Source: Amphiscolops sp. MND2022
Taxonomy: Eukaryota
DNA length: 64,000 bases
Reading direction: 5' to 3'
Assembly: GCA_964187785.1 (NCBI GenBank)
Contig: OZ076409.1
Location: 77,812,001 to 77,876,000, forward strand
Shown: positions 7,785 to 50,854 of the stretch, piece by piece
Layout: every line of letters starts with the position of its first letter
How positions within the stretch are numbered: position 1 is the stretch's first letter
The notes under the pieces: generated by a model
Databases searched by the model: none
The model's input: only the letters and a program-made list of their open reading frames with translations
Told to the model about the DNA's origin: nothing
Made by a program: the position numbers and the translations under genes

Positions 7785-8604
7785 TGTCGCTGCCCAGTAG
7801 CTGCGTGGGGACCGAATTGCACCAGTAGTTGAAGGCAAACAGAGACAATCATTGCATAAAAACTCCAAAAACTCTCAATGAGAAAATTTCTTTGCCTTAT
7901 GCATTTTCAAAAAAGTCATGTAAACATCCTAAATAGCAGTTATAATATGAGTCTTGTTTTATACGTTGCAAAGTGCCCAAAGTAGAAGCAGATTTAGACG
8001 CATGTGCTTAACTATTGAACTGATGACTAATAGGTTACATAACAACATCATTTTTCAATTCTAACTTAGCTCAAGAATCATTCATGCTAATGACAATACG
8101 TCATTATGCGGTTCGAGACCTGATGAATACTCAAAACTATAAGTGTTTTATAACAACACTATGCGGCATTCTACGGATCAATGCCTGACGATTACTCGTC
8201 ATTATACATTTTAGTTAAATGCGGTGCTCTGCGTTTTGACAATTGACGATCACTCGTCAACATTCGTTTTTCGCTTGATAGTCATCCAATGTAGTCAGTG
8301 CTGTTATACTTTTGATTTTTATCCCTAATGGTAACTGTTGTGAGGTTTTAAATATCTTTCTGGGTTCCGTAGAATCCAAATTTTGATTCTGCGTGTCAGA
8401 CTATGGAATGTAAATAGTAATGAAGTTTTAATGATGTAATTCGGTTTTCTAGTTCTCACAGTTTTTCAGGTTTTCAGAAACAAAAGTACAATGAATCAGA
8501 ATCAGTCGAGAAAAAAATTTCATCGAAACCAATTGCTCAAAATCATCACTCTCCCTGATAACTTTGTAAAAAGCAGTTTAGTTCAACAGTTGTTCCTTTT
8601 CTTC
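7785..8604 (+). repeat. 5' LTR of the old Gypsy element (3'-truncated)
   Basis: Aligns closely by eye with 21834-~22655 (tgtcgc..cccagtag..gaccgaa..caccagtagttgaaggcaaacagagacaatc...), then breaks off. Confidence 0.85.
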
Positions 8605-9803
8605 AAAAAACTCCAAAAACTCTTGGTTTGTTTCGGAATTTGGCATGGATTCCAAGAAGGAATGAACAAATGAAAAATAATATGACTTCAATCATACAGA
8701 ACCAAGGGGTTAGGGGGATCGAAGTCCGGATCAATTCTAGGATCTCGATCGAAATGAGAATCAGTGATCTCACATTCTTCCACACGGTTTCGCTTCCGAG
8801 GCTTCTTTTTTCTCTGCTGCACTTTCCATTAGCAAACTGTTCAGCAAACGCTTCAGGAATTGGAGCTTCGAAAGCAGGAAGCATCTTCGGCTCTGACCGT
8901 GGGTCAAAGGTTTAATAACTGCCAAGCGACTCCAAAGGAATCAACTTTGACTCATCGGATTTAGATGTGGAACACATTGTCCGAAAGTAGCAGACTACAA
9001 ATCATGATCTTTGCAAGTATGAACTTGATTCTTGCAGTAAATCCTTCCTAGCCAAGCATCACACCCTAACTTTGTCCAATTTCAATGTGATCATAAAACC
9101 CTTGCCCTCAATTGGCTAAGCCCATTTGTGCGTTTTCTACGCATCAAATGCCCTCTCAATTAATAGTATTTACTTTCATGACTCTAGCAATGCACTGCGC
9201 TAATTCAGTTGAATTGCATAAATTATGTAAACGAACAACAGTGCTGTTACGTTCAAGCAACGTTTTCAAACATTTTGATCTAGAACAATGGTGACAAATG
9301 TTGCTTTCATTTGCAAATCTTCCGAATCTAGAAATGCACGTAATGATCCCTGCAAGTGCTACTAATTCATTCCTTCCAACTGAATTCTTCTGAAAGTTCT
9401 CTCATGTATATCCCCAAATTCATGTTTGAATTCGATTATTTAAAAGTAAAAGCATTTGTTATTGTAATTGTTTTGTTTGTTTAATTTCCTGATGAAGTTT
9501 TTGTTGTTAATGATTATGTTATTGATGAGAAGCTGTAATGTTTCTTTTTGTTTTGATTTCACAACCATTGAAGCCTAGTTCTAGTTATTACCCTATCGTC
9601 TAGATAGTGCAGGAACGCTAGTTCTCTTTCTTTGCTGGGTCAGTACCCATTTCGGTGTGCAGGAACGCTCAATAGAAAAGGTCTGGTTTTCTTCTATATG
9701 TCAAGCACAGTGGTTGTCATTTCAAACTCAAACTCAAGTTTGTCTTGGAATATCCAAATCCAAATGGTTCGCCGATCAACTTTTGGCAATCAAAACTGCT
9801 TAC

Positions 9804-10672
9804 TGTCTCAACCCCCTAGGCTGTGGCGGTAACACAATGAGAAACATTATTTGCCTTATGCTTTTTCCAAGAAGTAATGTAAACATTTTAAATAGCAGTT
9901 AAATAACGAGTCTTAACTTAAACGTTGCAAAGTGCTCAAATTAGACCCAGTTTTAGACCCATGTACTTAAATATTGAACTGATGACTAATAAGTTACATA
10001 ACAACATCATTTTTCAGTTCTAACTTTGCCAATACTCATTCATGCTAATGACTGTACGTCATTATGCGGTTCGAGACCTGATGAATACTCACAACTATAA
10101 GTTTTTTATAACAACATTATGCGGCATCCTACGGATCAATGCCTGACGATTACTCGTCATTATACATTTTAGTTATATGCGGTACTCTGCGTTTTGACAA
10201 GTGGCGATCACACTTCAACATGAGTTTTTCGCTGAATAGTCATCCATGGTAGTCAGTGCTGTTATTCTTTTAAATTATATCCCTAATGGTGTAAAATGTG
10301 ATTTTTTGAAAAAAATCTAGAGTCCCTAGAATCCTTTATTTGAATCTGCGTGTCATACTATGGGATATAAATAGCAATGACGCTTTAGTGATGTAATTCT
10401 ATTTTTGTATTTCTCCTTGTATTACTTCCATAGAAACCAGTGTCATGCTCACAGTTTTTCAGAAACAAAAGTGCAGTAAATCAGAAGCATTCGAAAAAAA
10501 CTTTCATCAAAAAATCAGTTGCTCAAAGTCATCACTCCCTGATAACATTGTAAAAGCAGTCTAGTTCAACAATTGCTCGCTTTCTTCAATCTCTTGCATT
10601 TAAAGATACCTTCGTATCATTCAAATTCTTGACTCGACAAAGTTCTATTGTCAGTTGAGCGAAAGGGGAAAC
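9804..10672 (+). repeat. Third, more diverged LTR copy of the same family
   Basis: Starts tgtctcaacc, in the same 'LSQ' frame as the other junctions. It shares blocks such as ttgaactgatgactaat and cattatgcggttcgagacctgatgaatactc. It ends at ttgagcgaaaggggaaac (the gag start) and then jumps to pre-pol sequence. Confidence 0.75.
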
Positions 10673-10949
10673 ACACATCCACTGAGCCCAAAACCCACAA
10701 AAATATCAAAACTTGAAACTGATTAAGCAACGACAAACTCTCAACAATCAACACCAGAAAACCAACCAGAAGACATACACGACCTCTTACATGATGCAAC
10801 AGATCACCAGATAACTACTTTGCAAACCCAAAACAGACAACTCACCCTAACAATGTTTGAACCTACAAAATTCACCACAGTACCCCGCTACCCAACCGTG
10901 TCACAATAAAATTTTCTTGCAGTGACAAAAACAAACTCTTCTAGATGAA

Positions 10950-13900
10950 GATGTCACTGAACGTATACAGTTTGAGAGAGAACGAATTTTGTCATACCTC
11001 CCAATTTCGACATCCTTAACATTGAAACGGAAACGCCACATGTATTACATGCCGATGGACTTGAAAAGTTCACACTTGATGGTGTAATCGACACTGGAGC
11101 TCTAGCCTGTGCAATCTTCGAACAAGACCTCAACAAAATCAAGTTGCTTGCAAACGAAGCAATAAAAGACACTGGCCCCGCCAAACTTCCAAATTATGGT
11201 GTCTAATGGCTATCTAGAAGTTCCGTTCGGTTCGGTACTACTCGAAATTGAAGTGGCGGACTTTATGTTAAAGGGAAAACTTCATAGTAAAAAAATCGCC
11301 TATTGGATTTTGTTTCCTTCGACGGAATACTGCAAATTTCGACGTCACACAAGTCAGCTTAACATTTCTTTTCCCACCAATGCAACTTAAACCCGACACC
11401 CAAACAGCAATTCGACAAGCCACAACCTAGTTTGCAGAAAATACCTACACCCTACAACCAGGCAAAATACTCGCCATTGAAACCGAAATGCACCACTTGA
11501 TGGATCATGAGGCAACCGGAATAGTCACCCAATCACAACAATTTGAAAACCACGATAGCATCTTCATCACAGCGTCACTCAGCACTGTTATTAACGAAGC
11601 TCTCGGGTATCATATCATCAAGTTTTCCGAATTTCCCAATACAATAACTCTTGACACCCATCTAGCAGATTTCAAGGTACCCAATTCAGAACAAATTAAA
11701 CACATTCAACCAGTAGACCCAGCGTTGCTATACTTCATGATACAACATGACGATACAACAGAAGTCTATATCAGCGATCTCCTCAAAGTACCCCAGCCAC
11801 ACTCAGAGCAGGAAACATATTGGTTCCCTACATTTGAAGTACCAGGCGATCCAGCTACATACACCGCAATTCAACAAAGGGTATACAATGATTTTCTCGA
11901 GTTGAAAGAACTCAAAAAACTGAATCCACATGATAACGAAACATCCAGAAAAGATTTCTTTCAAACTTCAAATGGTCCGATACAACACACAGCCCAGACG
12001 AACAGGAAGAAAATAAAGAGATCTTCATCGAGTTTCACGATATCTTTGCTTGACATCTTTTTGATATCGGCACAAATCATCAATTCAAAGTAAACCTAGC
12101 ACCCAATGATGACAGACCCGCTTACAGCCAAAGTCTGCCTACTCCGATTAATCGCAGAGACGACATCACGGTAGAACGTGGACTTCTACCCAAGTATGGT
12201 ATCATAACAACACTACCATTTTCAAAATATGTCAGCCTCATTTTAGCACAACGCAAATCCAATGGGCGCCTCAGACTCCATGTGGATCTCCGAAAAATCA
12301 ACACCCTGATCACCGAAGAATTTGTCAATAATGACCAGCCAGTCATCACCTTATCGGATGTAGTCCAACACATGGAAGGGAAAAAAACACTTTTCACCAA
12401 ATTGGATTGCTCCCACGCTTACAACTGACTACAAATGGCAGACTATAATTCCATTCAAATGCTTGCCTTCGATTTTGCGAGCTGAGCTTTTGCGTACCGC
12501 CGACTCCTTCGAGGGCTTAACAGACCACTCTCTGCATTCTCAAACTTTATGATGACAACAGCATAAAGGCCAAAGACACAAAACTGTCGTGAAAAATATC
12601 AGAACTGTTTTTGAATGCACACGCAAGGCAGAATTGAGATTTTCTATGTCAAAATGTCATTTTCGAGTCAAACAAGTCATTTTGGGACGAACTACCACAC
12701 CCGATGGAGTCGCCCCTCAAGAAGACAAAGTGAAAATCTTCTTGTCAAAACTCGAATTTCCCAAATTGAAAAAAAAGCACTACAACGGAACAGAGAAGTC
12801 CTAAACTATCACCGAACTCACGTTCCATGCGTTTCAGAACGACTAATTCTATTTTTCAAGCTCTTCAAAGAAGTTCGTACCCTCGAATTTAGGAGAAGAC
12901 TTCACAAATCTGAACAAACTCCTCGGAAAGGCTTGCCAATTAGCATCGAAACAACCACCTAAAAAAAACAAACAAATCATAGTCATGCTCAATGCAAGTT
13001 CTACAGTTGCAGGATAAGCCAACATGATAGGAGATGACTCGACCCAAAAACTACAATCCAAGCGCAAAACATACGCACCCATAGCATTTGGCTCAAAAAC
13101 TTTCATCACAAAGGAAACGAAAATGTCAAATTGTGCGAAAGCATTCCTTTCCATATACTTTGCATTTGTCAGTTTGGAAACCTCCTGTGGGGAAGTACCT
13201 TTCCAGTCATCGTGTTTACCGATAGTAGATCAGTAACCCAAATTTTCCAAACTAAAATGATTCCTCCAGCACTTTGGAATGCATGTGATTTTGTATTACA
13301 AAACAATTTTGTATCCGCCCGTGTTGCCCGTTCAATGAACACCGCAGCAGATTTTTTATCTAGCACCGAAGTAGACCCAAGTGAAAAAATCAAAATGACT
13401 ATTCGGAACGTCGTTCACACAAAAGCAATTGAAGCAAGTAGTCAATCATCTGGAATTGTCGAAGAAGTTCAAAGCTACGTTCTCCCAGGCCATGAATTTG
13501 ATAAAAACCAATTTTCGGAAGAAACTCAAACTGTGCGAAATCAACCACAAACAGAAACACACAATGATACAACAAATGCAGCCTCAGAACTTAAACAAGT
13601 CCATAAACCTGCATCAGGATTTCATGCACCTCAAGATACTTCAAGGACAACGCAGGAATCAGACTTGAGCAAAACAACGTCATAGTACTCAGAACCTGAG
13701 AGCCAAAATCGAAGGTCATCCTATCGATGAAATCGGGTTGGGTTCCAATTATCGGTACCAGCATTACCAGAATAGAGATTAAACAGGAAGCCTTTACCCG
13801 AAATTGTTACACAATTACAGGGACCAGATCACACTACCAAATCCTTTTGCCAATACAACTACTAGAAGAAATCCTAAAGGCCCTGCATGGTCACAATTCA

Positions 13901-15324
13901 AACCATCCAGACATTACGAAGATTATACAAGAAGCAAGACAAAAGTATTACTACCCAAATTTTGCAAAATACATCAAAAAATGGGTCAGAAACTGCAAAA
14001 TCTGCATTCAAACCGAACTCATTAACAATGAGTTCCTCAGGACAGAACTCCTCAATCGTCCTGAAGGGGATCCCCTCCCTAAAGATATTTACAGATGGAT
14101 ATTCTACCTAATATTTGTTTGCTTATCCAGTAACTCGCATGACTGCTACGGCCGTATCAAGAGTGATCATGGATATCTTATACAAACATACCTACCTCTC
14201 AACAACCATAATCACAGATCCTGGAACTCAACGCACAAGCAACTGATGAAATTGCAGCAGTTCTTCGAAATGAACAGAAACATGCAACAATGAAACATGC
14301 ACAAACAATAGGACTCCTTGAGAGAACCCATGCATCAGTAAAAACACACCTAAAAGCCGCAACAGGCGCAATCAGGAACAACTACTTCCCATTGGCAGTC
14401 CTTAATCACCATACCACATACCATGCATCACACGGTTGTGAACAGTCACGAGACTTTCATGGTCGAATACCACACAATAAATTGACTACAACTTTGGATA
14501 CAACCTCAATCCTAGATATCAGACACAATCAGACATTGCTAAGAAAACTCAAAAAGAAAGAATATTCTTCTAGACCAAACTCTGAAGAACATAATGCAGT
14601 CTTATCTTAACGACAACGCCTATTATGATCGGAAAGCAAAAGCAGCTCCGCTTGAAACTACCGAATAATTCTACCTGGTAAACCCGAAGGCTGATACACA
14701 AGCAACAAAAATACCGTTTCGCGAAATTGGATAATGCACACCGTATAAAATGGAAAAAATCTTTTCCAACAGTAATTATATACTACAAAGACTTGGTACT
14801 AGCAAAACACAACTGTTACATCGGATTCGCTAACGGAACGTTACTCCGCAAGCACTACTAGCTGACATTTTTGTTCGTAAAACCGATTGGCAAAAAGATG
14901 ATCAGATACAGGTATCCTAAGACGATCTATATGCCCAAACATGGAACACTAACTTTGGATCGATTCCAATTAATATTGGTCTTCCGGATTACTCTCAAAA
15001 TACTGATGACACTCAGAATACATCGGAATTCAAATACCTGAAAATAACCACATACCCTCTCTTGAATTTTTAAAAAGTAGTGAGGGAGCCCAGTGGACCA
15101 CAGAACTAGAAGAATATAATGAGAACAAAATCCCGCAACAAATCAGTTAAGATGACAAAAAGACCCATAAAAACAAAAAGAAACAAATAGTACATCTAAT
15201 AATGTCGATCCCTAAAAACCGCAGAAAACCGTACTGCAAGAAGAACCCATAAATACCCGATGGTGAAAAGTACAACTTACGGCCAAATCCCAACCTAAAC
15301 TACTCTGAATCATACAGATACTAA
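10950..15324 (+). pseudogene. pol: Decayed Gypsy pol (PR-RT-RNase H-IN) with many frameshifts and stops
   Basis: Fragments DGVIDTGA (protease), WFPT, KYGIITTLPFSKY, AQRKSNGRLRLHVDLRKIN, KLDCS, APIAFGSK, PPALWNACDFVLQ, AADFLS, HGHNSNHP..CKIC, KHAQTIGLLERTHASVKT and terminal KYNLRPNP are collinear with the intact pol at 40477-44817. Confidence 0.93.
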
Positions 15325-15545
15325 GAAAACAAATGCAGAGAAACTCTTCTCTTCATCTCTACCTTCTTTAATATGCACTATTGTGTGAACCTAAAGTTTC
15401 CTCGTTAATTTTCAAACTGGTCGGTGCCCAGCCAAATAATTGACTAGTTGCAACGACATACAAAAAATACAGAATAAAAAAAACACAAAAATACAAAATT
15501 GTAAACGAAAGTCAACATTCAGTTATTTTTGCTCTTTGAAGAGTT

Positions 15546-15753
15546 TGAAATCAATCTGTTTGGAGCCTCTTCCTGCTCCGCCTACAAACACCGACTGAGG
15601 TCAACAAAAGTCCTACTCAATGAAGAACCAGGCGAAGGAGTGCTATTTACTAAAAACACTCCTTCGCCTGGTTCTTCATTGAGTAGGATAAATGTTGACC
15701 TCAGTCGGTGTTCGTAGGTGGAGCAGGAAGCGGCTCCAAACAGATAGATTTCA
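15546..15753. repeat. Long inverted repeat (hairpin with ~97-bp arms)
   Basis: tgaaatcaatctgtttggagcc...gaagaaccaggcgaaggagtg pairs with cactccttcgcctggttcttc...ggctccaaacagatagatttca, with few mismatches. Confidence 0.93.
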
Positions 15754-15849
15754 GCAGTGCTAGTACGTCTCACAATACGGGGTTGTTGTAGTAAATGACA
15801 CATTGGGCCTCTCAAGCCGCAAGACAGCTTTCCTGTATTCAGTCTCTAA

Positions 15850-18800
15850 TTTACCTTGAAGAGCCATTTGTCGGGCATGGTTTCCCTTTAAAAAAATCCA
15901 AATTAAAACTTCTTATCCGATAACAATTCAGTCTTCGTCCCAATAGACGGAAAACACGACTGACAGCCTTCGGGTACCGGAACAGGCTTGAAACATGTGG
16001 CACCGTCTGGTAAGAAGTTTGAAGACTGATTATACAGGACTGGAAAGAACATTTATCAGACTCAAGAGCTGGAATCGGTACCTCAAATAAAGATGGCACC
16101 TCCACTAAAGGCGCCAGGCAAAAACATGAATGCCTAAACAATTGTAGCAGTTCTGGTCGGCATTGATATTCGTAATGAGTAGCAATAAACTGAATTCAAT
16201 CATCAAATTCAGGTACTTTGATATGAATGATCGGTATTGAGTGACCATCTTCACCTTGTCACTTGAAGAAAATAACCCAACAATGACGAAATGGGTGAAT
16301 AACTTCTCAATAGGTTCAGTGTAAACGTTTTCAGGACTAACAAGAATTGCGGAAGAATCGAGAGCTGACAGTCCTCGGAGTAAATTTGACTTAACACTAT
16401 CATGAATCGTTAGTTGATTGCAAAATGCTTTACAGAAACTCACGAACTGCTCTATAAATTTACTTGGACGAGGCAGTTTACTGTCAAGTACTAATCGGTT
16501 TAAATCTTCATTTAGTACAAATTCATAAGCTGTCTTGAAGGGTACACTAGTTGAGTCCGAATCCAGCATAAGGAATGTACCCCAATCTGAGATGTTTCCC
16601 AAGTGCAATCAGGTAAAATGTTTTGTAACTGACTATAGACGAAGACCGCGAAATGATTGAATGAATTGAATTCATCGTCAAGTTGCTTTTGAATTTCAAA
16701 GAAGGCTGAATTGTCTAAAACATAACAGAAAATCCAAATACAGTGTCATTATTTTGCATGGTTGATCTTGCCAATGAACTTAATCAAAAACTGTGAACAA
16801 ACAGTGCTAATCACACAAGGAAATACGAGCTGGACTCATACTCTACGTCACTATGCGGAAAACGAACGAGCGTGTAGCGTAGATCGTCATTTCAATATAA
16901 GAATTATGCGGCACTAGGCGGATTGAGGTGTGGTGACTACTAGGCGGTGAAGGCACAGTTGAGTATGCGTCACTTTGCGGATCAAGGTGTGACGTGTCTA
17001 CGTTACTATGCGCGAAAATGCGTATATGATTACACGTGCTGGAATAATGCAAAGAGAATTAACCATACACCATCCTAGATCCAAATACGATACGCAAATA
17101 GGAAAGACTTTCTATTATGAATGATACATGTTCTGATTACCAGCGAAAGAAGCTGCTAAACAAAGTTGTTTGAGAAAAATAGAAATCTCGAAAAAATACT
17201 TGTTAGAGTATGTCGACTCATACTCACGGATATGAGGAACAAAAGTGTCTACTTGAAAAAGAATTATAATAAGCGGAAGTTTTCAAACAGTTAACAACTA
17301 ACAGTGGTCAAGGACACATCTGATGATAAACAGCCTAAGCATAGTCAAATATGCCGTGTCCAGGCAAAAGCACTCATCCAAGGTGTTGGACTGAAAAAAT
17401 TCAAGAAATAAATGGGCAAAACTTAACTACATAAAAAATGAAAACAAGAAGAATAACTTCTCTCATATGTAAACGGGAGGCTGGTAGGCGGGCAACCTGG
17501 TTCAAGTGATCTCGGACGTGTTCCCAGTTACTGGATAGGATTTCTATGAGGCTGGAAGCTTCAGCAAGAAAATATTCTATATGAAGTACAAACTGAAACT
17601 AAATAACAAAATCAACGAAACTTTGAAATTGATCTAAGTTAGACAAGAAATGATAACTACTTTGTTCAAAAGTGGCAATTTTTGCAACCAATCACTACCC
17701 AACGCAGTTCTGAGCTTCAAAAATAAAAATCCAGAATCGTTCTGAAGTCATGTCGTTCGATAAATTGTGCTGTGGGAATGACCAAACAAAGTTATCTTCG
17801 ACAGCGTTTTTTTACCGAGACAAGGAGGAAGATAAGCAGTCATTGATTTTGTCACCAAATCCAATGCGCGATATGCAAGTTGGGTGAGTTTCGAAGAGAC
17901 TTAGGAACGACGAAAACAGAGAATGATATTTTCGAGGAAGTAACATTCCTCGTGGGGCTCCGCCAATACAAACACGTTGTAGCACATTTTTTGATCAAAA
18001 GAAGCATAAATCTTACGACTACTTGAAACTTTTAGCGGAAAAAGAGCTTCAACATTTAATGACAAAAGTTGTGGAACAATTCAATAGAACTTACACAGAG
18101 ACGCTGTTGACTCCAATTATGTACTGACAAACGATCGCTGGAAGTTATTCGCACTAGTTCTTCGTACATTCCTGTTAGACTGGCAATGTTTGTCGTAAAG
18201 GGGCATCCCTGGTACGTCCTTTCGAATCCGGTGCTCTTTGAATAGATGAGAATCAAAACGGTAATGAGAGAACAATTCTAAACTTCAATGGCTCATAAGC
18301 GACAACTCTACACTACCCGACACCACCACCTAAAAGATGACTTGTTTTTGTCCAGGGGAAAACTTCAGAACTGGATGACGTTTGAACATACACCCATTTA
18401 AGGAATATTTATGCCTCCGGCGCTTTCCGCGTGGCATTGTAGGTCATGTAGGACGGCTCCAGTAGCTGCCTGGGCGGCCATCTCCTCTTGGCTTGACGTG
18501 GCAAAAAATATTGTCGGAGTAGTATCATCTACCACAGTGAGCGCCATGGTTTGATTAAGGTCAACTTCTTTTCCTGTATTGAACTCTTGACGACTCATAC
18601 CGAGAACGTTTGACAAGATAAGGACCTCTGGCCTAGTGATGGCAAAATTAGGAAGCCCTGTCTCAGAGAAAGTTACTTCCCTCGGAAGACCTTGAGTGTC
18701 CGGTGGATTTTCCATTCCTCCACAATCGAGAGGTTCTTCTTGCTCATGAGCAAACGAAGTTGTCTGTGCTGTCACTCTATATTTTATGTTGTCGGACGAA

Positions 18801-19500
18801 TTGACTAAATCGCGCATAAGAACGCTGGTTTACATTGGAGGAGTTTGGGTTTTCGAGGAATTTATGGGTAGCATTGCCCAAGGGCTTCTGTATGACTCTC
18901 GAAGCAGCTGTATCTCAACGGTAACAGGATCAGGCAATGGTAAAGGACTCTCCTCGTGTATTGGACCTGTCTTAAGATTCTCTCCTGAAGTTTTGAAAGA
19001 TGTCAAATTATGAGCAGATTTATTCGTTATCCTCTCGTCAAATTGTAGGGGAAGATTGGTTAATGAATCTGTTGTAACAGATTTCTTCGAAGACTGCGGC
19101 GAAGCGTAGAACTTTGCGGGTGAGTTGGATGGAATGACTCAAGCCGATTCTTGTTCAACTAAAACAAATGATCTGTTGCTATAATGAAAAACGAACATAT
19201 TCTGCAAGCGAGAAATGTTCTCTGATTGTCTGAAGCCGGTCCTGCGGACAGGAAAAAAAGAAAAACGGAAGTCGCTTAGAAGTTAGAAACGGAAACGTTT
19301 CAAAAAATTCCGAACTTGACATAGGTATCACATGAGTCATTTTCATTTTGCGGGCCTGATCAGCTTTGCAAAATCGCAAACCCAAACAAAGTGAAATAAA
19401 TTAAAATTATCATGAATTATGTTGAACTTACACGATGAAGCTTCGGGTGGTACATCGGAGCTCCAAAGGTCATCACGATGATGAGGGACGTGGCCTCTTC
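15850..19500 (-). pseudogene. Decayed antisense accessory gene of the old Gypsy element (homologue of 36011-40126); boundaries approximate
   Basis: ~18190-18280 (minus) reads HYRFDSHLFKEHRIRKDVPGMPLYDK, compared with RHFGSDKHWFRDVAYRVQKDLPVYSR. 16105-16608 reads FVSFCKAFCNQLTIHDSVKSNLLRGLSALDS, compared with FRNRCREFVDHLVDVILAQQVVSSDFFQGLYCFCP. An S/T-rich N-terminal part lies at 18398-19150. Confidence 0.7.
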
Positions 19501-19944
19501 GAGATTTTATCCTGGATTTGAATCCATTTACTGTGACTGGTGATAGAATGACCAACAGGCAGAAAACGAACAATTTAAACAATTCAAAGTTAGAATGGAA
19601 ACAATACCATGTAATAAACAGAATAAAGCAGTCTAGATGTGCAATCAAAAAGGTAGAAGCACCGAAAAATTTTATCTGTGAGTCCTGATATTTTTGACAG
19701 AACTAATTTTTTGACTCAGAACGGATCAAATAAAGACTGTGAAACAAAAAGGATTAGCGTAACAAGAACGGCAAAAAGCGAATGATGCAGTTGTGTGCAA
19801 ACGAGCAAAATGCAAGCTAAACTTTGATTTGCTGAATAAATGTCAATCACGTCTGCCAGCGTGATTGATTGACTCATCGCAAGTTTTGAAACCAGTACAT
19901 ATATGTACACGTTGTGGAAAGAATAATTTTGGAACGACCTAATA

Positions 19945-20070
19945 CGCGAGAGTATGCGGCAACATGCGTATCAATTAGTGACGACTATGCGGCAGTTTGC
20001 GGATTTGGAGTGAAGAGTATGCGGCATTATGCGGTTTGACTAATGATGCACACTCGGCATGCTACGGATT
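19945..20070. promoter_or_regulatory. Cluster of TGCGG-N5-TGCG(G/T) motifs; putative internal bidirectional promoter of the old element
   Basis: Copies at 19955, 19988 and 20020 lie between the antisense gene and the sense 3' ORF. The same 10-bp-period motif occurs in the LTR (22146, 22211, 22269). Confidence 0.45.
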
Positions 20071-20820
20071 TCACTACATGCATACAAAGGTTTAGTTCAA
20101 TGCTGTGAATAGTTGAAAATGATTGATTGAAACAGTATTACGTAATCAAACCAGAGAAACTACATACTCTTTATCACAGAAAGACATGTGAAACTGTTAA
20201 TGAAGTACACGTGATTGTTACCCTTTTAATGTAAATTTGTTTGCTAGTTTGATGCTAACGTGAGATTCCATTTTTCCATTTTTGAGGCAAACTCCAAGTG
20301 AATATAACAATGAAACGGGACTTGATTATTCGTTATTAGGTCCCCATTCACTTTTCAAGTTCGGGATTCAACTAGCGCAAATTTGTCAAGAAGAGTCGAT
20401 TCCTTGAAAGTGAAACAACACATTATGCAACATTTTCTCAAATTTTCACATTTCCTCTGGACTTAATCATGCAAATCTGGATAAATATGATTTTAGTGAG
20501 TGTTTTTGTGATGATGTTTTTGTAGTTACTGTTTTGATAGTTAGTGTTTTACATCAGTTAGTGTTTTTATATGATTTTAGTTAGTGTGAACATGAGACCC
20601 CGCAAAACCCGTATAAGGGAATCAGACCATGACACTCAAGTTTTTTGCAAGCTTTTGTCATAGACGAGAGGAATAGGGAAGTCCACCACCATATGGTCTT
20701 CAAGCTAATCAAAAATCAGCTGCTCTAGTCACAACTTCGAAAAATCAATCATCTTAAAATCGGTTCACTCAAACACTCAAATGTAACAATCTACATCAAA
20801 ACTGATAACTCCGTAGAAAA

Positions 20821-21877
20821 ATGGACAATATGCAATTTAGTCTAGACGAGATTTTCGACAACTTCAGATCGTCTCCCTCTATAATAGATGTTTCTAACGA
20901 ATCAGGTGAGGAACTCACCGTGGAAACCGGAGATGCCTAAACGATAAACGAGAGATTTCACGTAGGCGCTCTTAGATCAGATGCCATTGCAGTTTTTGTG
21001 GGAGCCGCAGCTACAGCGCTCTTTCCTTCTCCATCACTTCCCTAACAACTTACGGAAGTTTTTGATACGGGTGGTCGTAACTTGAAAGACAATTGCTCGA
21101 TTTAATGGACGAACAAGAAAGCAACCAGTCATTGTCGCCGTCCGTTTTCATTGACAAGGAGCTTGAGGAATCGACATGTCACTGGACGATGCAAGAGGTT
21201 CCTCTGAACAGTTTCGGTAGACACTCAGCTGCAATCTTATCCACTCCCAACGGAAGAGGCAGAGGAAGAGGGATACTAACACGACGAAGACCAAACTATC
21301 CGCCTGGTTATACACAGAACATGAGTAACATTCCTACAGTAGAGAACAACAGGCCAGATCCCCGAATGGTGAGCACCATCAGCATGGATCATCATTACCA
21401 GAATAATCTCAATGGCCCAAATTTCAATATACCTCCTGAAAATGTCATTCAGCATTTGAATCCGGTGCCACTAATGATACAGATTCAACCGAATATGCCT
21501 AACTACACAGGAGTGCGCCAAGATCTTCCTATGTTCCCCTCTTACCCATCATACAACAGAATTTTACGGCGCACGGAACTCATAGTACAAATATACTTCT
21601 AATGCACTCAGGAGAAAGAGACACATAGAGAATCTCCCCTACGGTATTGCCCCATGTCGCAGTTTTCTGCAACTGGTGTGGTAAAACCTCTGATCAAATA
21701 GCCGTAGAAATATCGGGAGAATATCAACTGTCGACAGCGTATGAAGCCGAGACAGTGAGGTATCGTAATGTTCGATCGCGTGCCTTCATCGACAGGTTCG
21801 AGGCAGCCCAGTTGACTTTGAAAGATGCGGGACTGTCGCAGCCCAGTAGATGCGTGAGGACCGAAGTGCACCAGTAG
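20821..21877 (+). pseudogene. Decayed sense-strand accessory ORF running into the 3' LTR (acidic N-terminus, GRGRG, P/N-rich, CxxC)
   Basis: Made of ORF pieces 21093-21602 and 21647-21877, plus an upstream IIDVSNESGEE. The last piece crosses the LTR start as ...AGLSQPS. Confidence 0.55.
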
Positions 21878-23195
21878 TTGAAGGCAAACAGAGACAATCA
21901 TTGCATTAATACTCCAAAAATTCTCAATGAGAAACTTTCTTTGCCTTATGCATTTTCAAAAAAGTCATGTAAACATCCTAAATAGCAGTTATAATATGAG
22001 TCTTGTTTTATACGTTGCAAAGTGCCCAAAGTAGAAGCAGATTTAGACGCATGTGCTTAAATATTGAACTGATGACTAATATGTTACATAACAACATCAT
22101 TTTTCAATTCTAACTTTGCTCAATATTCATTCATGCTATTGACAATACGTCATTATGCGGTCCGAGACCTGATGAATACTCACAACTATAAGTTTTTCAT
22201 AACAACACTATGCGGCATCCTACGGATCAATGCCTGACGATTACTCGTCAATATACATTTTAGTTATATGCGGTACTCTGCGTTTTGACAAGTGACGGTC
22301 ACTCGTCAACATTCGTTTTTCGCTTGATAGTCATCCAATGTAGTCAGTGCTGTTATACAGTTGAATTATACCCCTAATGGTAATTATTGTGATGTTTTAA
22401 ATATCTTTCTGGGGTCCGTAGGATCCGCATTTTGATTCTGCGTGTCAGACTATGGAATGTAAACAGTAATGACGTTTTAAAGATGTAATTCAGTTTTGTA
22501 ATTCTCCCAGTTTTTCAGTTTTTCAGAAACAAAAGTACAGTGAATCAGAATCATTCGAGAAAAAATTTTCATCAAAATCAGTTGCTCAAAAACATCACTC
22601 TCCCTGATAACTTTGTAAGGAGCAGTCTAGTTCAACAGTTGTTCCTTTTCTTCAATCTCCTGGATGTAAAGATACTCCCGTATATTTCACATTCTTGACT
22701 CGACGAATACCTTTTTCAATTGAGCGAAGTGGGAAACAAGAGAAATAGAGGTCTAGAAGACTATATACGCCATCTCCGGAGAGAGAAGTAGAAAGGACCC
22801 AAGTTGAGACACCTAAAACAGGTAATGAGACTTTAACTAATTATAACACTCTTGTTCAAGGAATTTTAGGTGAAAATAACACGGAGAATCAATTGACTGA
22901 AACTAGCCAAATTAGTAACGAAATTTAAGCTTGGACTCAGATAATCGAGCGTCAAATCCAACGTCCTAAATGAATGAATTACAAGGTACACAACCATCGG
23001 GATCCAAAATAAGTAAGTCTATAAGAGTTCAAGCATCTAATAACGAAGATTCAGACACAGAAAACGAAGATTATCCTCTTAGAGCGTTTAAATTAAAATA
23101 ATTAGGACATCCTGCAAAGCCTTTATACCGTACCGAATTAGACCTAGACGAAACCATAATATCAAATGAAGAATCGGAAGAAGAGGATTATCACA
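21834..23195 (+). repeat. 3' LTR of the old Gypsy element (~1.36 kb), including a decayed gag N-terminus (~22732-23195)
   Basis: TG...CA ends. The last ~460 bp read like a gag start (GNKRNR..TPSPERE..ETP..SNEESEEEDYH), as in the LTR of the young element. Confidence 0.8.
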
Positions 23196-23460
23196 ATCCT
23201 CATCTACCTTACTGGTCTTCGTGGTTTGGCTGACTTGTAACGTTCACTTCAATGCTTCAGCAATAGGGTTTCAAAACACCGGCCGTCGGTATGAAAGAAT
23301 ATGTCCATTCTTCTGATCTTCATTGAAAGGGGAAAATTATAACTGCGAGTGATATCATTTGATGCAGCAAGCAACATTTACCATCAAAATTTTAATTAAA
23401 AAACAATGAATGCCTGTTAAAATGATCTCTTTCGACAACATAGACGGATCAAAAACTTAC

Positions 23461-32400: not shown

Positions 32401-34884
32401 TGTTACGACATGCTATCGAGTCGTTTTGAGTTGAACTTATCCTCACTGACTTTGTAGGGGTATAAAAGTTTCTAGTCTCCTCTTCTACTTCTTCCTCAGT
32501 ATTTTCCTTGATGCTTCCCCTTGTTTCAGGTTTTAGTAGTTTCAACATCTCTCTCTGGGATTCGGCAAGAAGAGTCTTAATTTCCGATGTTATCTCATCT
32601 TTCAAGGATGCCCTTAAACTCTCCAAGAAACTATTTTCAATTCGAGGAGATTTTGGTCTGGAAGGACCCGACACGTCTACGTCCTGGTTTGAAGAACACT
32701 GATTTTCTATCACTATCGGTGAAATAAAACCTTCACTTACGTCCTTGTCGCCTTGTTGCTCATTCCTTCTTTTCTGGCTTCTAGTTGTAGACATTTTGAA
32801 GACAAGCTTTATCTTGAAGAATTGATTTTTCCAAAGATAATTTTCAACAAAGTTAGCTGAGATTAGAATTTAGCGAAATTGAGAATTCAACTGAATTAAA
32901 CAATTGCAAAAGACTGAGTCCCCGAGTCAATGAAAATCATCCTATATATACCCTCCTAGCATCATTTGATCACGATTAAAATCCTAATTTTCCTCGAACA
33001 ATTAGTCATTTCCTGTATTTTCGATGAAAAAATCATTTTGTTCCCAATTTTACGTCGATAACTCGTCAATTTTTGAGACACGACAATTTCAATCTAGCAT
33101 TAGTCATCAACCACGATCATATCATTTCAGCTCGGCGTCCTTTGCTTTCCTCCCAAGCAGGAAGTAGATATTACTTCAGTCTGTCAAACCGGAAATGATT
33201 CCCTGTTTTACTGCTTTGGTTCGTAGGAAAATGACGCGGAGATGACGCTGACGTGAACAACTAATACCTGATTTTGAATTTTTACTTGAAGGAAATACTA
33301 TGACTAATGTTTTCAGCTTTGGAATTTCCAATGATGCTAGGAAAAGTAAAGATAAAGCTATGGAATTAGCTTCAATTTTTGAGTTGAATTCCCAATTCAG
33401 ATAAATAGTAATTAAACCAAATTAACGTAACACCAACGTTTACATTAGAAAACTAGAATGATTTGGCAACAGCTCTTGGCTTCTACAAAATTGGCTGAAA
33501 AAGTGGACGGAGCTATGACGTGTTAAAATCAAAGGTATTAATGAGTATTAATTTCATAATTGAATTCATTCGTACTCGAGTTTAAACTTTGACGTCCTAA
33601 CGTCGTTGGACCGAACTAATAAAAGTGAAACAGTCAGTTGCCAAAAGTGGTATGAAAATGATCACAATGAGATGTATAAAAACAACAACAAGCACAGTTA
33701 TATTGGGGGAGAACACGAATATGAATATTACAAAAATATGACCTCATTATTAAAATATAATCTTTGCTGGTTCATAGCCCATAACTTTTCAGATACGTCA
33801 GATTGACGTCAGGTTACACACAATCATATTTATGGTCTGCTTCAAACAGCATAAAATGTACATTAATAACATTCCCCCTTTGGAATAAACTGTGACTTTA
33901 ATTATGAAGAACATGGAAATCCTAATCGGGTCATTTTACAATGTGATTCCAAAAGATTAGTATTTTTATTGACGGGAACAGGACGTAAATTATCAAGTTT
34001 TATCCTTAACCTCGTAGAGTTCTAAAACATCTTTAAACGTTTCTTTTCCGTCGAATCCGACATATTAATATTCATTCCACTGAATTGGATGGATTAAACA
34101 GACTATTTTGATGGATTTCGGACGTAACGCGGACGTACGTATTAAGATTAGCCTTAGTCCGCTGGTATTTGACGTAACGCGGACGTATTTAAAATAAGAA
34201 TTAGTCCGCGCCTGGAAGACAACACCGTGACGTCACTATGGCGGAAAATTGGAATGATTTTAAGAGGTGCCACTAATATAGGCGGTAAATTGGAATGGTT
34301 CTCTAGTGAGCGCGGACGGAACGGTGACGTCACACTATATACTTTTAAGTCTGCTTCTTACCGACGTTTAATATACATGTATTCTTTATTTTGTTTACTT
34401 AGCGCAGTGCCTACGTCCTAATCCGCACTAATTGCTGTTCAAAGTGCAATTAAGCTGCCTTTCTTAGAAAAGGAGTGGATATCTCAGTGTGTCATCTCGA
34501 TGTACTTTCTATTTTAGATTCAGATAATGTCCTTTTTCCAGTAGTGATTTTGGGTATGTTTTCGTTTAGATCAGTCTATGGTTTTTATTTCAAGACGTAT
34601 GCTTAATTAAGTTTTCAGGTGGCGAATGTTTCTATTTTGACGAGATGAAAACGTCCTGCCGGAAGTGTGTGAAATCATTTTGGCTCATTTTAGTTTCTGT
34701 TCTCATTTTCATTTAAACTCTGCGCACGTTAGACGTACTTTTAGTCACAGTTTATTCTAACATTAGTATGAAAGTTCAAGTCAGTAGCCAAAATACCTTT
34801 TCGAAAGTTTCGCTGTACAGCCGTGTCCTCGTCCGAATCCGATCCGTCTACATCCACAATCCAGTCCGGGAGCGGACTGTGACA
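32401..34884 (-). repeat. 3' LTR (2484 bp)
   Basis: Matches 46340-48822 with about 14 differences counted by eye (~99.4% identity). Confidence 0.96.
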
Positions 34885-35607
34885 GGGCCACTGTCATGGG
34901 TCGTATAACTCTCCCGGGTTGGCAAAACTGGAACGGCTGATATTGATTGTTTTCCTTGTCGTCTCCTGGAGTACGTTTCGTTGTCGCTGACCGTATTGGT
35001 GCTTGTTTTTCCAAGTCATTTAGTGGGCTAATCGGACGTGGAATTACTCTCTTCAGTGGGCCTGGGGGTGTCTCGAAAAGAGAAATATTGTCTTCTTCCC
35101 TGTGGATTTCCTCCAAATATTCGTTGATAATGCAGCTCGTGATCGATTGTGGGCTTGGTGCACGATGTCCTTCCACCACGAACACATCAGGGTTCGATTT
35201 ATTGTCGTCCTCTTCCTGTTCATCCGGACTGTCTGGACTCTCCTTCATTGAGCTGTATTCAGACTTCGGCGAAGCGTTGTCCAGCTCTCCTGATTCTAGG
35301 GATTCGAAAAAAACGAACTCAGCCGCATTCTCTAGCAGTCCGCTTCTAACGAGTCCGCTGAGACGTCGAAATACTCTTCTTCATCAGCTACTGCTCTGGC
35401 GGATGAATTTGAAACATTTAGGATGACTCTAATATTGGGTAGTGACCCACTGGGAAGGGGAGTTGATGATCTCTCCGACGCTTCTGTTTCGTCTTCACTA
35501 GCTGACGAGATGTCTATTAGCTCGTATATTTCCAGTAGATGGGTCATTTTCTTCAAGAAATTCTTTCTTTCTTTGCAGCTGACTTTTATCTTTTGATTGT
35601 TCCTCAA
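34781..35607 (-). CDS. Sense-strand accessory ORF (acidic, S/P-rich, probably disordered), split by one frameshift near 35335-35380 and ending inside the 3' LTR
   Basis: ORF 35332-35607 overlaps the frame of ORF 34781-35248, which is open back to ~35380. It crosses the LTR boundary at 34884 as ...VALSQSAPG. Confidence 0.55.
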
Positions 35608-35699
35608 TGAATTCAGGATTAATTAGGATTAAGGAGAATATTGGGATAAATCCCTCCATTCTGATTGGCTATTCAATCATTTTAATCCTTTTCAATCCT

Positions 35700-35960
35700 C
35701 AGGTGTTGACGTTATTCCAACGCCGCTTTTTATTGGCCGCAAATTAAATTAATCTGCTTAGTCAAGATTGTCAACGTTATGCTGACGTCATTATAGGTTA
35801 TAGGATTAATAATCCAATAACCTTTTTGTCGACGTTATGCCGACGTCAATTTCGCTGATTTTCCAATCAACTTTTTGGTGCTGACGTTATGCCAGCGTCA
35901 ATTTCGTTGGTGATTTGCCAACTTTAGGTTTTGTCACCGTTATGATGACGTCAATTTCGA
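35700..35960. promoter_or_regulatory. Array of five ACGT-N7-ACGT-like motifs; putative internal bidirectional promoter
   Basis: Consensus gACGTtatgc(c/t)gACGTcaat at 35709, 35774, 35832, 35884 and 35937 (~52-65 bp spacing), between the two divergent ORFs. Confidence 0.55.
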
Positions 35961-36010
35961 AGCTTGTTTTCATTGTTTTGCTTCTTTTTCAGATTCCCTG
36001 CTGTTTCGTA

Positions 36011-39000
36011 ATGGATTCTCGTCCATCTGTTTCTGTTGGTTTTGACCCAGGAGCTCAGAGTGGTCATGAGACTCAGTTCTTATTTTCGGAAGGAGATGTG
36101 CGTCGGAGTGACGCAGATGATATTCATGTTTCAGTACGTGGTAAGTTTATCATTCGTTGATCCATTAAGCTTTCGTGAGATATACTGACAACAGATAGGC
36201 CTTTTCTGTATTTGTATTTCCACAGCTTAGATTTTCTTGACGCGTCGATGTTGGAATGATCTTTTTAGGTGCTGGAGCTACTCCTCCTTCCCCTGCTGCC
36301 GATGAGCGTGAGCCACTTCACTCGTCTACTCCTATCGCAGGTTCCTCTTCAGTTCCCGTCCACGTTCCCGTGACGTCTTCTATTGCATTTACTCCCCCGG
36401 TTGTTTCTACTGCAGACTCAGCTTCAACTCTGGGAGGACTTGACGTCCCTCTTACGCAGTCTGTTGTCGGACCTTCTTCTAGGGACGCAGATAAAACTGG
36501 TGGAGTTTCTGCTCACGTAGGTGAGACAGTATGCCCCCCCTCCAATGAGGAAACACTACAGGTAGCAGAGACAACACCATCCTGTGGTGTCGCTGGTTCA
36601 TCGCTGTTCCCTGGGTTCCTTGGTGGATTCGAGAAAACACGGGCGGAGTCGTCCAAGAAACGGGCATCGCAGAAAGGTAATGGATTACTGCTGAGTTATA
36701 TAGTGTATAGTTTGGAGTTTGCTAATCCCACTTTCTATATTGGGTTTATGATTATGTATTTAGTGCCTAAAGAATTGTCTGCGGTGTTGCCTTTTAAGAG
36801 GAGACGACAAGTGCGCGTTTCAACCGCCGATTTGCAGGTCTCACAGTTTACTGTCAGCGGTAATGTTGAATTCTTTGTTTTTAAATTCGTTGTGGCGGTT
36901 GTTGCAGTTGTTGGCTGTATTCGTTTTGTAGACAGTAACAATGATGATTTGGGAGAAGTGTCGGTGGAGCGTGCTCTGCAAGAGGTGTCAGGAGTGAGCG
37001 ACATGGACACGACTGGACTTGCCCATCCCTCAATTGGTCCGTTTCTGGCAAGTACGTGTGGTCTTTCTGTTACTTGGTATTGTTGTAGTACGTTTGGTAT
37101 TCGCCACATTGTCGAGGTAATGCTGCATTGTTTTGTGTTTATTTCTAGGGATGCAAGATTTAGTATCCCGCATGGAGACAAGTTTCGATGCTGCAGCGTC
37201 ACGTGCCCCTCCTGTCAAGAAGTACAGCAGTCGCCACCGATTGCGAAAAGATATGGTGGGAGATCATCCGGTGTACAGTCTTTTCGTCAGTGGGTCGAGC
37301 AGTGGATCTTCGTCCCTCTTCCACTGTATGATCTGTCGGCGAGACGTATCAATGCAGTCTCGGGGTGCGAGGGAATTTGTCCGCCATTTCGGATCCGATA
37401 AGCATTGGTTTCGAGATGTAGCCTATCGAGTGCAGAAAGACTTGCCCGTCTACAGTCGCTTGATGGAGCCCCTCGAGTTGTCGTCTGATGAGCGTGCAAA
37501 GTATCTGAGCCAGGATCCCGTCGAGAAGGATGAGGGTTTCAGTTTTCCGGAGGATCTGCTACCAGCCTGTACCCGAGTAGACTCCACTGTTCCCCTTCTC
37601 ACTATGGTGAATTGCATCGCCGAGCTGTGCCGCTGTGGGGGTAGTTATACCCTCTTACGCAAACTTTGGGGCAACTTTCGTGCTACTTTGGGGCCAGAAG
37701 ATCCGCTCTACAGCCTGTGTTGGAATCGCGCTGAGACTCTGGTTAGTATGTTCCTTTCTCTTTCTAATCTTGGTGTTATCTTCTTTCCCTTTCCCCTTTT
37801 TTGGTCGGAGTATTGGCGCGTATTATGATGTTTTTCGTAAGTGAGTCTGTGCCTCTGTTTAGTCGTTAATCTGTCGTGCCTTGTACCCACGAGTCTTGAG
37901 ATCTGTGGTGTCGCGAGTGACTGCTTTCAACTGCTATTGTGTCAGTTTCGAGGATCGCGATGATGGACAATATTGTTTTGTCCGAACTTGGGAGGGCAAC
38001 AGTCTACTGGAGATCTGCGTGAATGTTGAACCTTTGGGGCAGCGTATTCCACAAAGTGAGTTGTCGTCACTATCGCGGGTCGTGACGAGTTTGCCCTCAG
38101 GACTTATGCCTGTCAGTATCCGCGGGGTTAGCCAACCAGTGTTGCGGGTCCTCAGTGAGGAGCGGAGTGATGGTTGTCGCTTCGTTTACGCCCGGGAGTT
38201 CTCAGTTGACGTCTTTCTTCATTGTTACCGAGTGGCTCACCAGGAAATCTTTGGGCTTTTGGAGACAACTACGATGGTTGACTACCTCATGTTGCGCTTG
38301 CGTGGGGCTCTTCAGGAGCCTTGGATGATCGACCTGCCAAACTTGCGTCGTTGCGTCACTGCTGGACGGGTGTCTTTCGACGAATTACGAGGAGTCATCA
38401 GTGAACTGATCTCGATCTGGGACACCGTGCGAGAGTACGTCCGCTATACGGGACCTCGCCACATTAAAGTCGGTTCGGACAGGGTGAGTTCTATCTTTTA
38501 TGTGTGATTGGTCAGTTTGTCCTTGGTAGGTTGGTTAGGTCGTCGTCATCATTCCAGTATTCATGGCTTTGTGTGTGTTTTAGATGCGTGGCACAGATCC
38601 TCTGGTGTATTCGGAGTCCACGAATAAACTTCGTCTAGGAATGCTTCTCCACGTACTCGATTTGTGTGAGTTGTTCTTTTACTTGTCAGTAGGTTATTGC
38701 TGTTTTCCATCACGTTTTGATTGTAGTATTGGCGTAGGTTTCTGTGTTGTTGTCGTTTCATTGACGGAGAGTGACCTGGGATGTATATGGTCGATTTCGT
38801 TTGTATTTAGATGACTGCACCTTCAAGAAGCAGAAGACTGGCCGTGTGGATTATGCTTTCCATGCATACAATGAAGTGTGCCAGTTCATATACTGTTTGC
38901 TTTCTCGAAGCCGTGTTGTGTCTGGCCTGCCTCAGATGGACGATTGGGAGGCGTATATGGATCCCTCAAAGTTGAAAGATCTGGAGAAGATTTCAAGTGA

Positions 39001-40126: not shown

Positions 40127-40369
40127 ACTTTGAAACAGTTATGAACTGAAGTTTGTGATTTTGGTTTGTAGTTTTTAGTCTGATATTTTTTGCTGTTGAT
40201 TTCCGTTGATTCCCTCTGATAAAATGAATGAGTTCTGGAGGAGGGTTATTTGAAAAGAGAAAAGAGAAAAAAAAGAAAAAAAAATCAGAGTAATGAGGGG
40301 CATTGTGTGTCCTGAATTGAAAAATTGTCAGATCGGTTCGGTCTGGACTCCTGATAAAATCTTTTCCTC

Positions 40370-45300: not shown

Positions 45301-45306
45301 TTTTTT
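45248..45306 (-). promoter_or_regulatory. -1 ribosomal frameshift signal (A AAA AAC plus downstream stem-loop)
   Basis: The heptamer AAAAAAC (45306-45300) sits directly before the gag TAG. It is followed by ATACGCC-GCG..CTGC / GTAG..CGC-GGCGTAT pairing. pol is in the -1 frame. Confidence 0.8.
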
Positions 45307-50810: not shown

Positions 50811-50854
50811 CATCTCTCAATTTCGCTCAAACTAGTCACATAAAACATACATTT

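What the first reader, a model, noticed from the sequence alone, without database searches (positions are those of the whole stretch)
15850..21877. The same accessory architecture is present in a second, highly divergent element
Seen: the old + strand element has the same order after pol: a decayed antisense homologue (HYRFDSHLF..PLY; F..C..F..L..V.S..GL), then a motif cluster, then a sense acidic ORF crossing the LTR start in the same C-TG-TC 'LSQ' frame. No nucleotide similarity to the young element's cassette is visible. Inference: the cassette is an old, vertically inherited trait of the family, not a one-off capture.
Basis: partly seen in the sequence, partly recalled or inferred. Interest (0 to 1): 0.72.

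Follow-up and report, generated by a model that had tools for sequence, protein, structure and literature searches.

The report
Retrotransposons carrying a disarmed DNA transposase
Two very distantly related LTR retrotransposons in this window both carry, backwards after pol, a spliced gene for a protein shaped like a cut-and-paste DNA transposase that seems to have lost its cutting residues, suggesting one kind of jumping gene long ago turned another's enzyme into its own regulator.

Summary
The decayed + strand Ty3/gypsy element carries, antisense after pol, a true homologue of the young element's six-exon accessory gene. Direct alignment is not significant, but nine intact relatives of the old copy match young-family profiles at 51-103 bits (decoys at most 7.7), and the profile-profile E is 8e-21 at 18% identity. 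Both genes converge on pol 200-250 nt from its end and share the last intron's position and phase. A predicted structure of a full-length relative matches Hermes hAT transposase (Foldseek E 3e-5; Z 13.1, next 6.6), but the inferred DDE and CxxH positions are not conserved. Motif clusters are real and element-specific; the old one is repeated in the LTR, upstream of the gene and in its last intron. The sense-ORF claim is only partly right: no homology is detectable, and the old LSQ frame is not the acidic one. Best reading: an anciently captured, catalytically dead hAT transposase kept as a DNA-binding regulator of the element. RT-versus-accessory tree congruence, expression and function were not tested.

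The parts
7785..8606 (+). Old element: truncated 5' LTR, preceded by GTCCT (7780-7784)
   Evidence: 93% identical to 21834-22655, K2P 0.069
9835..10673 (+). Second, more diverged LTR-like copy directly before pol; gag is missing
   Evidence: 82% identical to the 3' LTR, K2P 0.147; no gag hit in the old element
10992..15324 (+). Old element: decayed pol (protease, RT, RNase H, integrase)
   Evidence: tblastn with the young pol
15519..16714 (-). Old accessory gene, last exon (insertion domain and C-terminal part of the hAT-like fold); broken by frameshifts near 16605, 16215 and 15900 and by the inverted duplication
   Evidence: 57-68% identity to eight intact relatives and 50% to a ninth; old-subfamily profile covers positions 2-373 here; acceptor at 16714
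15546..15753 (.). Fold-back inverted duplication of the gene's 3' coding end (not a MITE)
   Evidence: 102-nt arms, 90% complementary; both arms match profile positions 331-373
16840..16920 (+). Two TATGCGG motifs inside the inferred last intron
17440..17729 (-). Decayed middle exon(s), including the segment with the family-invariant Trp
   Evidence: collinear weak hits; not significant alone
18216..18308 (-).
   Evidence: best upstream segment, 21 bits, reached by 6 of 150 shuffles
18400..19140 (-). Ser/Pro/Thr-rich open stretch, the likely counterpart of the young low-complexity exon 2
   Evidence: composition and position only; inference
19432..19527 (-). Candidate first exon (MDSNP..., GTAAGT donor)
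   Evidence: ATGGATTCnnnTCCA occurs twice in the window: here and at the young start codon; pattern chosen post hoc
19945..20060 (+). Internal motif cluster, a diverged copy of the LTR's motif array
   Evidence: 4 TATGCGG; 69% identity over 107 nt to LTR 22209-22308, E 3e-6
20821..20937 (+). Acidic 38-aa sense piece with an IIDVS (SIM-like, recalled pattern) core
21105..21602 (+). 165-aa Pro/Asn/Met-rich sense ORF ending before the LTR
   Evidence: single-member cluster
21629..21877 (+). 82-aa frame that crosses the LTR start as LSQ (68 codons before the LTR)
21834..23195 (+). Old 3' LTR (TGTCGC...ATCACA) with 3 TATGCGG, followed by ATCCT (23196-23200)
   Evidence: the right end is inferred from the CA terminus and the 4-of-5 target-site match
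32401..48822 (-). Young Ty3/gypsy element, 2.48-kb LTRs 99.5% identical, target-site duplication GTTAT
   Evidence: Pfam RVT_1, RT_RNaseH, rve
36011..40126 (+). Young antisense accessory gene: six GT-AG exons, 1049 aa, open throughout
   Evidence: exon model; exons 3-6 map end to end on a profile of uninterrupted relatives
35703..35960 (.). Young internal motif cluster (CGTTATG..GACGTCA units)
   Evidence: densest 300-nt window for ACGTCA in the window, 7 against a mean of 0.34
34781..35547 (-). Young sense acidic ORF crossing the LTR as LSQ; this copy is broken by a frameshift near 35308
   Evidence: 111-member cluster; LSQ 31 residues from the end in 14 of 14 listed relatives

Best explanation
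[quoted passage not shown] SHOWN: homology of the two accessory genes; Hermes-like predicted fold of a family member; no conserved acid at the inferred DDE positions; shared position, orientation and last intron; element-specific motif arrays in non-coding DNA. FOLLOWS FROM ESTABLISHED KNOWLEDGE: antisense introns survive reverse transcription because the genomic RNA is the other strand, and the gene needs its own internal promoter (as maize Grande gene23; PMC7264820). INFERRED: the protein is nuclear, binds the element's CpG-containing motif arrays in the LTR, internal promoter and intron, and so activates or de-silences its own subfamily, with protein and motif co-diverging.
For: Old relatives versus young profiles 51-103 bits, decoy maximum 7.7 of 909; hhalign probability 99.3, E 7.9e-21. 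AlphaFold model pLDDT 82; all 8 Foldseek hits at E<=0.001 are Hermes; VIA Z 13.1, 399 residues, rmsd 5.1, next Z 6.6; ESM Atlas leads under 0.9 include hAT/ZBED families. Inferred first D: 0 of 28 rows Asp; second: 4 of 28; last E: 0 of 24; CxxH in 1 of 28; Trp368 in 28 of 28; zinc ligands in 25-27 of 28. Intron shared. No terminal inverted repeat with an 8-bp duplication around the young gene. 14 of 16 TATGCGG lie in the old element, all on +, none in its pol or accessory last exon. Precedents: VANC motif arrays in non-coding regions and introns, same orientation (PMC5735166); transposase-derived regulators losing catalytic residues (bioRxiv 10.64898/2026.08.24.746577).
Against: No expression or binding data. 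DDE positions were placed from predicted strands and a recalled hAT pattern, not from a residue-level structural alignment. The full fold was modelled for P0213, whose carrier element is unknown; the young N-terminal exon alone gave no clear fold match. Upstream exons of the old copy are marginal (chain score reached by 7 and 9 of 100 shuffles). Motifs were picked post hoc and could be host transcription-factor sites (ACGTCA is a CRE-like word; recalled). The old element is rearranged (two unlike 5' LTR pieces), so its pol and cassette could be a chimera of sister insertions.
Confidence: 0.55

Rival explanations
1. Same ancient capture, but the protein acts at integration or nuclear entry rather than transcription: it tethers the intasome or cDNA ends (LTR motif arrays) to chromatin, or carries them into the nucleus.
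For: The whole transposase scaffold is kept, more than a DNA-binding regulator needs; basic tails (7-12 K+R in the last 40 residues of 7 proteins); motif arrays lie in the LTRs; nuclear-import roles are proposed for plant antisense ORFs (PMC7264820).
Against: Arrays also lie internally and in an intron, where regulatory binding is the simpler reading; no interaction data.
Confidence: 0.17
2. The cassette is a module exchanged between lineages by recombination, or was captured more than once from a related intron-bearing host or transposon gene; it is not strictly vertical.
For: Deep split (19% identity, branch 2.66) against 30-47% in pol; a group with an uninterrupted core exists whose carrier is unknown; rotifer ORF3 types were acquired repeatedly (PMC5408684); the sense ORFs are unrelated.
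Against: Same site, orientation, spacing, last intron and start motif; faster evolution than pol is expected for an accessory gene.
Confidence: 0.15
3. It is a negative regulator: the protein (a dominant-negative or repressor like some domesticated hAT proteins) or its antisense transcript restrains the element or host hAT transposons.
For: A convergent transcript ends about 200-250 nt from pol; dsRNA control is proposed for antisense ORFs (PMC7264820); dead transposases can poison active ones (recalled).
Against: Long conserved reading frames in many recently amplified copies argue for a protein useful to the element; the sequence is too distant from known hATs for any Pfam match.
Confidence: 0.09
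4. A nested hAT DNA transposon, inserted by chance and carried passively.
For: hAT fold; nested insertions are common.
Against: No terminal inverted repeats with a target-site duplication; catalytic positions not conserved; the same site in two 19%-identical subfamilies; open frame over 1049 codons.
Confidence: 0.04

Closest known systems
Plant Retand/Grande/RIRE2 antisense additional ORFs (TRP28)
   Same: Ty3/gypsy, long pol-3'LTR region, conserved antisense ORF with its own promoter, family-specific repeat arrays, proposed DNA-binding regulator (PMC7264820 main text; PMC11963269 passages).
   Different: There the origin is stated as unknown and TRP28 is confined to flowering plants; here the protein has a full hAT transposase fold, five introns and no TRP28 match.
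Hermes / hAT transposases
   Same: Predicted RNase-H-like core with helical insertion domain, N-terminal C2H2-type finger, invariant Trp.
   Different: DDE and CxxH not conserved; no terminal inverted repeats; 8-13% identity; no Pfam hAT domain; encoded inside an LTR retrotransposon.
Transposon-encoded regulators VANC (VANDAL) and TnpA (Spm)
   Same: Element-specific short motifs arrayed in one orientation in non-coding regions and introns (PMC5735166 passages); TnpA derives from a transposase (bioRxiv 10.64898/2026.08.24.746577, abstract and passages).
   Different: Those are plant DNA transposons regulating themselves; the preprint's main text has no whole-word 'retrotransposon' or 'LTR'. 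No sequence relation was tested and binding is untested here.
Domesticated hAT proteins (ZBED1/DREF, ZBED6, FAM200, Kat1)
   Same: hAT scaffold re-used; ESM Atlas leads to ZBED/FAM200 clusters at 0.81-0.84.
   Different: Those are fixed host genes (roles recalled, except Kat1, PMC4763223); this one is multi-copy cargo of a retrotransposon.
Bdelloid rotifer LTR ORF3 captures; Oikopleura Tor elements
   Same: Animal LTR elements with non-standard third genes (PMC5408684 passages; PMC4402516 listing only).
   Different: Those are env-like, GDSL or DEDDy genes; 'transposase' and 'intron' do not occur in the rotifer paper's main text.

Membership tests
Ty3/gypsy LTR retrotransposon | pol order protease-RT-RNase H-integrase | tested here: met
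   young pol Pfam order; old pol collinear with it
Ty3/gypsy LTR retrotransposon | TG...CA LTRs with 4-6 bp target-site duplication | tested here: met
   young GTTAT/GTTAT; old GTCCT/ATCCT, 4 of 5
Ty3/gypsy LTR retrotransposon | gag upstream of pol | tested here: inconclusive
   present in the young element, deleted in the old
hAT transposase | RNase-H-like core with helical insertion domain (Hermes fold) | tested here: met
   for relative P0213
hAT transposase | DDE catalytic triad | tested here: not met
   positions inferred from predicted strands and a recalled motif; for the old subfamily only the last exon is available
hAT transposase | CxxH motif | tested here: not met
   1 of 28 rows; motif's role from PMC4763223
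hAT transposase | Conserved Trp of the insertion domain (Hermes W319) | tested here: inconclusive
   invariant Trp368 at a fitting place; equivalence not shown by superposition
hAT transposase | N-terminal BED zinc finger | tested here: inconclusive
   C-x2-C-x16-H-x5-H conserved; the BED domain of ZBED1 appears only at E 3.8
hAT DNA transposon | Terminal inverted repeats with 8-bp target-site duplication | tested here: not met
   8 chance 8-bp pairs, best with 5 of 12 inverted matches
Retand-type antisense ORF | TRP28 (PF04195) domain | tested here: not met
   no Pfam match
VANC/TnpA-like self-regulator | Element-specific motif arrays in non-coding regions, one orientation | tested here: met
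   (old element; motif chosen post hoc)
VANC/TnpA-like self-regulator | Protein binds the motif and de-silences cognate copies | not testable with these tools
   needs binding and expression assays

The most novel reading that the evidence does not exclude
A class I element domesticated a class II enzyme: this Ty3/gypsy lineage encodes a dead hAT transposase as a sequence-specific anti-silencing or trans-activating factor whose zinc finger co-evolves with subfamily-specific CpG motif arrays (TATGCGG in the old subfamily, GACGTCA units in the young), together with a fast-evolving acidic partner carrying a SUMO-interacting-like motif, both driven from one internal bidirectional promoter. It would be a VANC/TnpA-like system in an LTR retrotransposon.
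Probability: 0.3. Interest if true: 0.88.

Novelty: new variant of a known kind. Interest (0 to 1): 0.7.

Why it matters
The origin and role of antisense extra ORFs in LTR retrotransposons is an open question; a 2020 review says similarity to other transposons was lacking (PMC7264820). Here one is traced by fold to a hAT transposase, kept across subfamilies only 19% alike, with introns that only an antisense gene can keep. It comes with candidate binding sites that differ by subfamily, so specificity can be tested directly by swapping proteins and motif probes. If it activates its own element, it extends transposase-derived self-regulation from plant DNA transposons to retrotransposons.

Tried and rejected
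Direct tblastn of the young protein on the old element: best E 0.46-1.1; 16 of 123 identical. Collinear-chain test of the old upstream exons: not significant; a frameshift-aware score gave 25.2 against a maximum of 24.1 in 60 shuffles, marginal. Sense ORF homology: none; ESM Atlas lead of the old LSQ piece to Cu-oxidase_4 at 0.79, below chance-level cut-offs. Pfam: nothing for any accessory or sense protein. PDB sequence search with the family profile: nothing. Fold search of the young zinc-finger exon alone: no clear match. Related loci: none in metagenome contigs or viral contigs. No RNA holder listed. No genome held. Earlier findings: none. The 15546-15753 inverted repeat as a MITE: rejected. 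env-like reading: no support sought beyond fold; the fold is a transposase. A host taxon recalled from memory (acoel flatworm) was used only as a paper search term and is untested. The careful tree did not finish; the quick tree was used. Papers on a hAT-derived gene in an LTR element: 0; none evident in the listings; subscription papers, Repbase and supplements were not seen.
Full report
Setting. The window is eukaryotic repeat-rich DNA; no genome is held and no call names the host. It holds a young Ty3/gypsy element on the minus strand (32401-48822; LTRs 99.5% identical, duplication GTTAT) and an old one on the plus strand. The old element has a truncated 5' LTR at 7785-8606 and a 3' LTR at 21834-23195 (K2P 0.069, flanks GTCCT/ATCCT), a second, more distant LTR piece at 9835-10673 (K2P 0.147), no gag, and a decayed pol 30-47% identical to the young one.

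The young accessory gene. Six GT-AG exons at 36011-40126, antisense to pol, give an open 1049-aa frame. Exons 3-6 map end to end on a profile of relatives with an uninterrupted core, which supports the exon model. The last exon alone finds 490 clusters at 50% identity with E<=0.001, of which 150 were listed. None of the members read carries a name, and no Pfam family matches.

Is the old copy homologous? Directly, no significant alignment exists (best E 0.46-1.1; 16 of 123 identical). A young-family profile, however, ranks 16605-16222 and 16210-16016 on the minus strand as the two best non-self hits among 642 chunks (iE 0.003 and 0.013). A frameshift-aware score gives 45.8 against at most 26.1 in 40 shuffles and 25.2 or less in the 26 other tiles outside the young gene. 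The old ORF finds nine intact relatives at 50-68% identity. Three young-family profiles built before these were fetched score them at 51-103 bits, against at most 7.7 for 909 reversed or shuffled decoys. Profile against profile gives probability 99.3, E 7.9e-21, 18% identity over 240 columns. The old last exon runs from 16714 to about 15519, broken by frameshifts and by a fold-back duplication of its own 3' end. Its acceptor falls at the same aligned residue and phase as the young last intron. Both genes end about 200-250 nt from the end of pol. A candidate start, MDSNP at 19527, mirrors the young MDSRP (post hoc).

What the protein is. AlphaFold on a 55-row alignment of relative P0213 gave pLDDT 82. 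All 8 Foldseek matches at E<=0.001 are Hermes hAT transposase (best 3.2e-5, probability 1.0). VIA-align ranks Hermes first of 48,161 chains at Z 13.1 over 399 residues (rmsd 5.1), with the next at 6.6; the tool warns that helical proteins can reach such Z by chance, but the two programs agree and the match spans model residues 196-699. ESM Atlas leads, all under 0.9, include hAT/ZBED clusters. In 28 full-length rows the zinc ligands C-x2-C-x16-H-x5-H are kept in 25-27 and Trp368 in 28, whereas the inferred first Asp is Asp in 0, the second in 4, the last Glu in 0 of 24 non-gap rows, and CxxH appears in 1. These positions rest on predicted strands and a recalled hAT pattern; the roles of DDE, CxxH and W319 are from passages of PMC4763223. 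The finger's type is unsettled. No terminal inverted repeat with an 8-bp duplication flanks the young gene. The family works like a domesticated hAT protein; it is not a hAT transposon.

Depth of the family. A quick maximum-likelihood tree of 50 rows (the careful search did not finish) puts the old window copy with its nine relatives at support 100 on a branch of 2.66, and the young copy among young-type rows; mean identity old to young is 0.19. Several subfamilies have tens of near-identical members (36, 21, 18 old-type; 21, 26, 28, 59 young-type; up to 104 in the uninterrupted group). A protein without catalytic residues amplified so often needs a vehicle; in this window the vehicle is the retrotransposon, twice. 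For the other copies it is unverified, since no loci could be fetched.

Motif clusters. TATGCGG occurs 16 times in the window, 14 in the old element, all on the plus strand: in the three LTR copies, four times at 19953-20028 and twice in the inferred last intron, never in pol or the last exon. The internal cluster is a diverged copy of the LTR array (69% over 107 nt, E 3e-6). The young internal cluster is the window's densest ACGTCA stretch (7 in 300 nt, mean 0.34), and its LTRs hold the next densest. So each element repeats its own word in LTR and internal promoter region. The words were chosen after seeing them.

Sense ORF. In the young family it is real: 111 members, mostly 254 or 274 aa, LSQ 31 residues from the end in 14 of 14 listed. 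In the old element the acidic piece, the long ORF and the LSQ frame are three separate frames, and none resembles the young protein. LSQ follows largely from the shared LTR terminus, though 68 open codons before the LTR hint at a decayed gene. The architecture is similar; homology is unshown.

Mechanism. Most likely (0.55) an old capture of a hAT transposase, disarmed and kept as a DNA-binding regulator of its own subfamily through those motif arrays. The parallels are VANC, which binds same-orientation arrays in non-coding regions and introns (PMC5735166, passages), and transposase-derived regulators (bioRxiv 10.64898/2026.08.24.746577, abstract and passages; its supplements are closed). Rivals are intasome tethering or import (0.17), exchange or repeated capture (0.15), repression (0.09) and passive nesting (0.04). 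Binding, expression and tree congruence were not tested; no RNA run was listed.

Comparison and novelty. Antisense ORFs after pol with repeat arrays are known in plant Retand, Grande and RIRE2 elements, with origin described as unknown (PMC7264820, parts 1-2 of 3 read; PMC11963269, passages). Rotifer LTR elements captured enzymes as ORF3 (PMC5408684, passages). Searches for a hAT-derived gene in an LTR element gave 0 papers and nothing evident in three listings; subscription journals and repeat databases were not searchable. Verdict: a new variant of a known kind, interest 0.7; the boldest reading has probability 0.3 and interest 0.88.

Noticed in passing
window 45297-46733 and 32401-32794: The young gag starts inside the LTR: its first 131 codons are repeated in the 3' LTR and the frame reads through the LTR end and primer-binding site. 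The old 3' LTR also ends in an acidic, ORF-like stretch.
   Followed up: partly
window 34886-34915 and 21805-21833: Neither element shows a clear polypurine tract before the 3' LTR; the stretch is coding in both.
   Followed up: no
window 40373-40543: The young pol's tail motif shared with the old pol lies in a different frame from the long pol ORF, so the young pol has a frameshift near its end.
   Followed up: no
window 34230, 48168, 16845, 22147: ACGTCA(C/T)TATG occurs in both elements' motif arrays (young LTR, old LTR and intron), in opposite orientation relative to the element; an 11-base match is not significant alone.
   Followed up: partly
window 20881-20895 and 35523-35509: Both sense regions begin with an acidic stretch holding an (I/L)ID(V/I)S core, a SUMO-interacting-like pattern (recalled); alignment p 0.17; present in 12 of 14 listed young relatives.
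   Followed up: partly
   Followed up: no
P0116, P0208-P0233: A group with an uninterrupted 500-890 aa core, clusters of up to 104 members, implies intron loss or gain inside the family.
   Followed up: partly
window 8607-9834: 1.2 kb of unexplained sequence between the two 5' LTR-like pieces of the old element.
   Followed up: no
window 50854-59220 and 26273-30908: Two further direct-repeat pairs starting TGTAAC (87% and 75% identical) look like LTRs of other elements; no pol or accessory hit between them.
   Followed up: partly
window 934-1362: Reverse transcriptase fragment (RVT_1, E 2.7e-5).
   Followed up: no
window 3279-7219: Tandem repeat of about 1,028 bases next to the 200-N gap at 7266-7465.
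   Followed up: no
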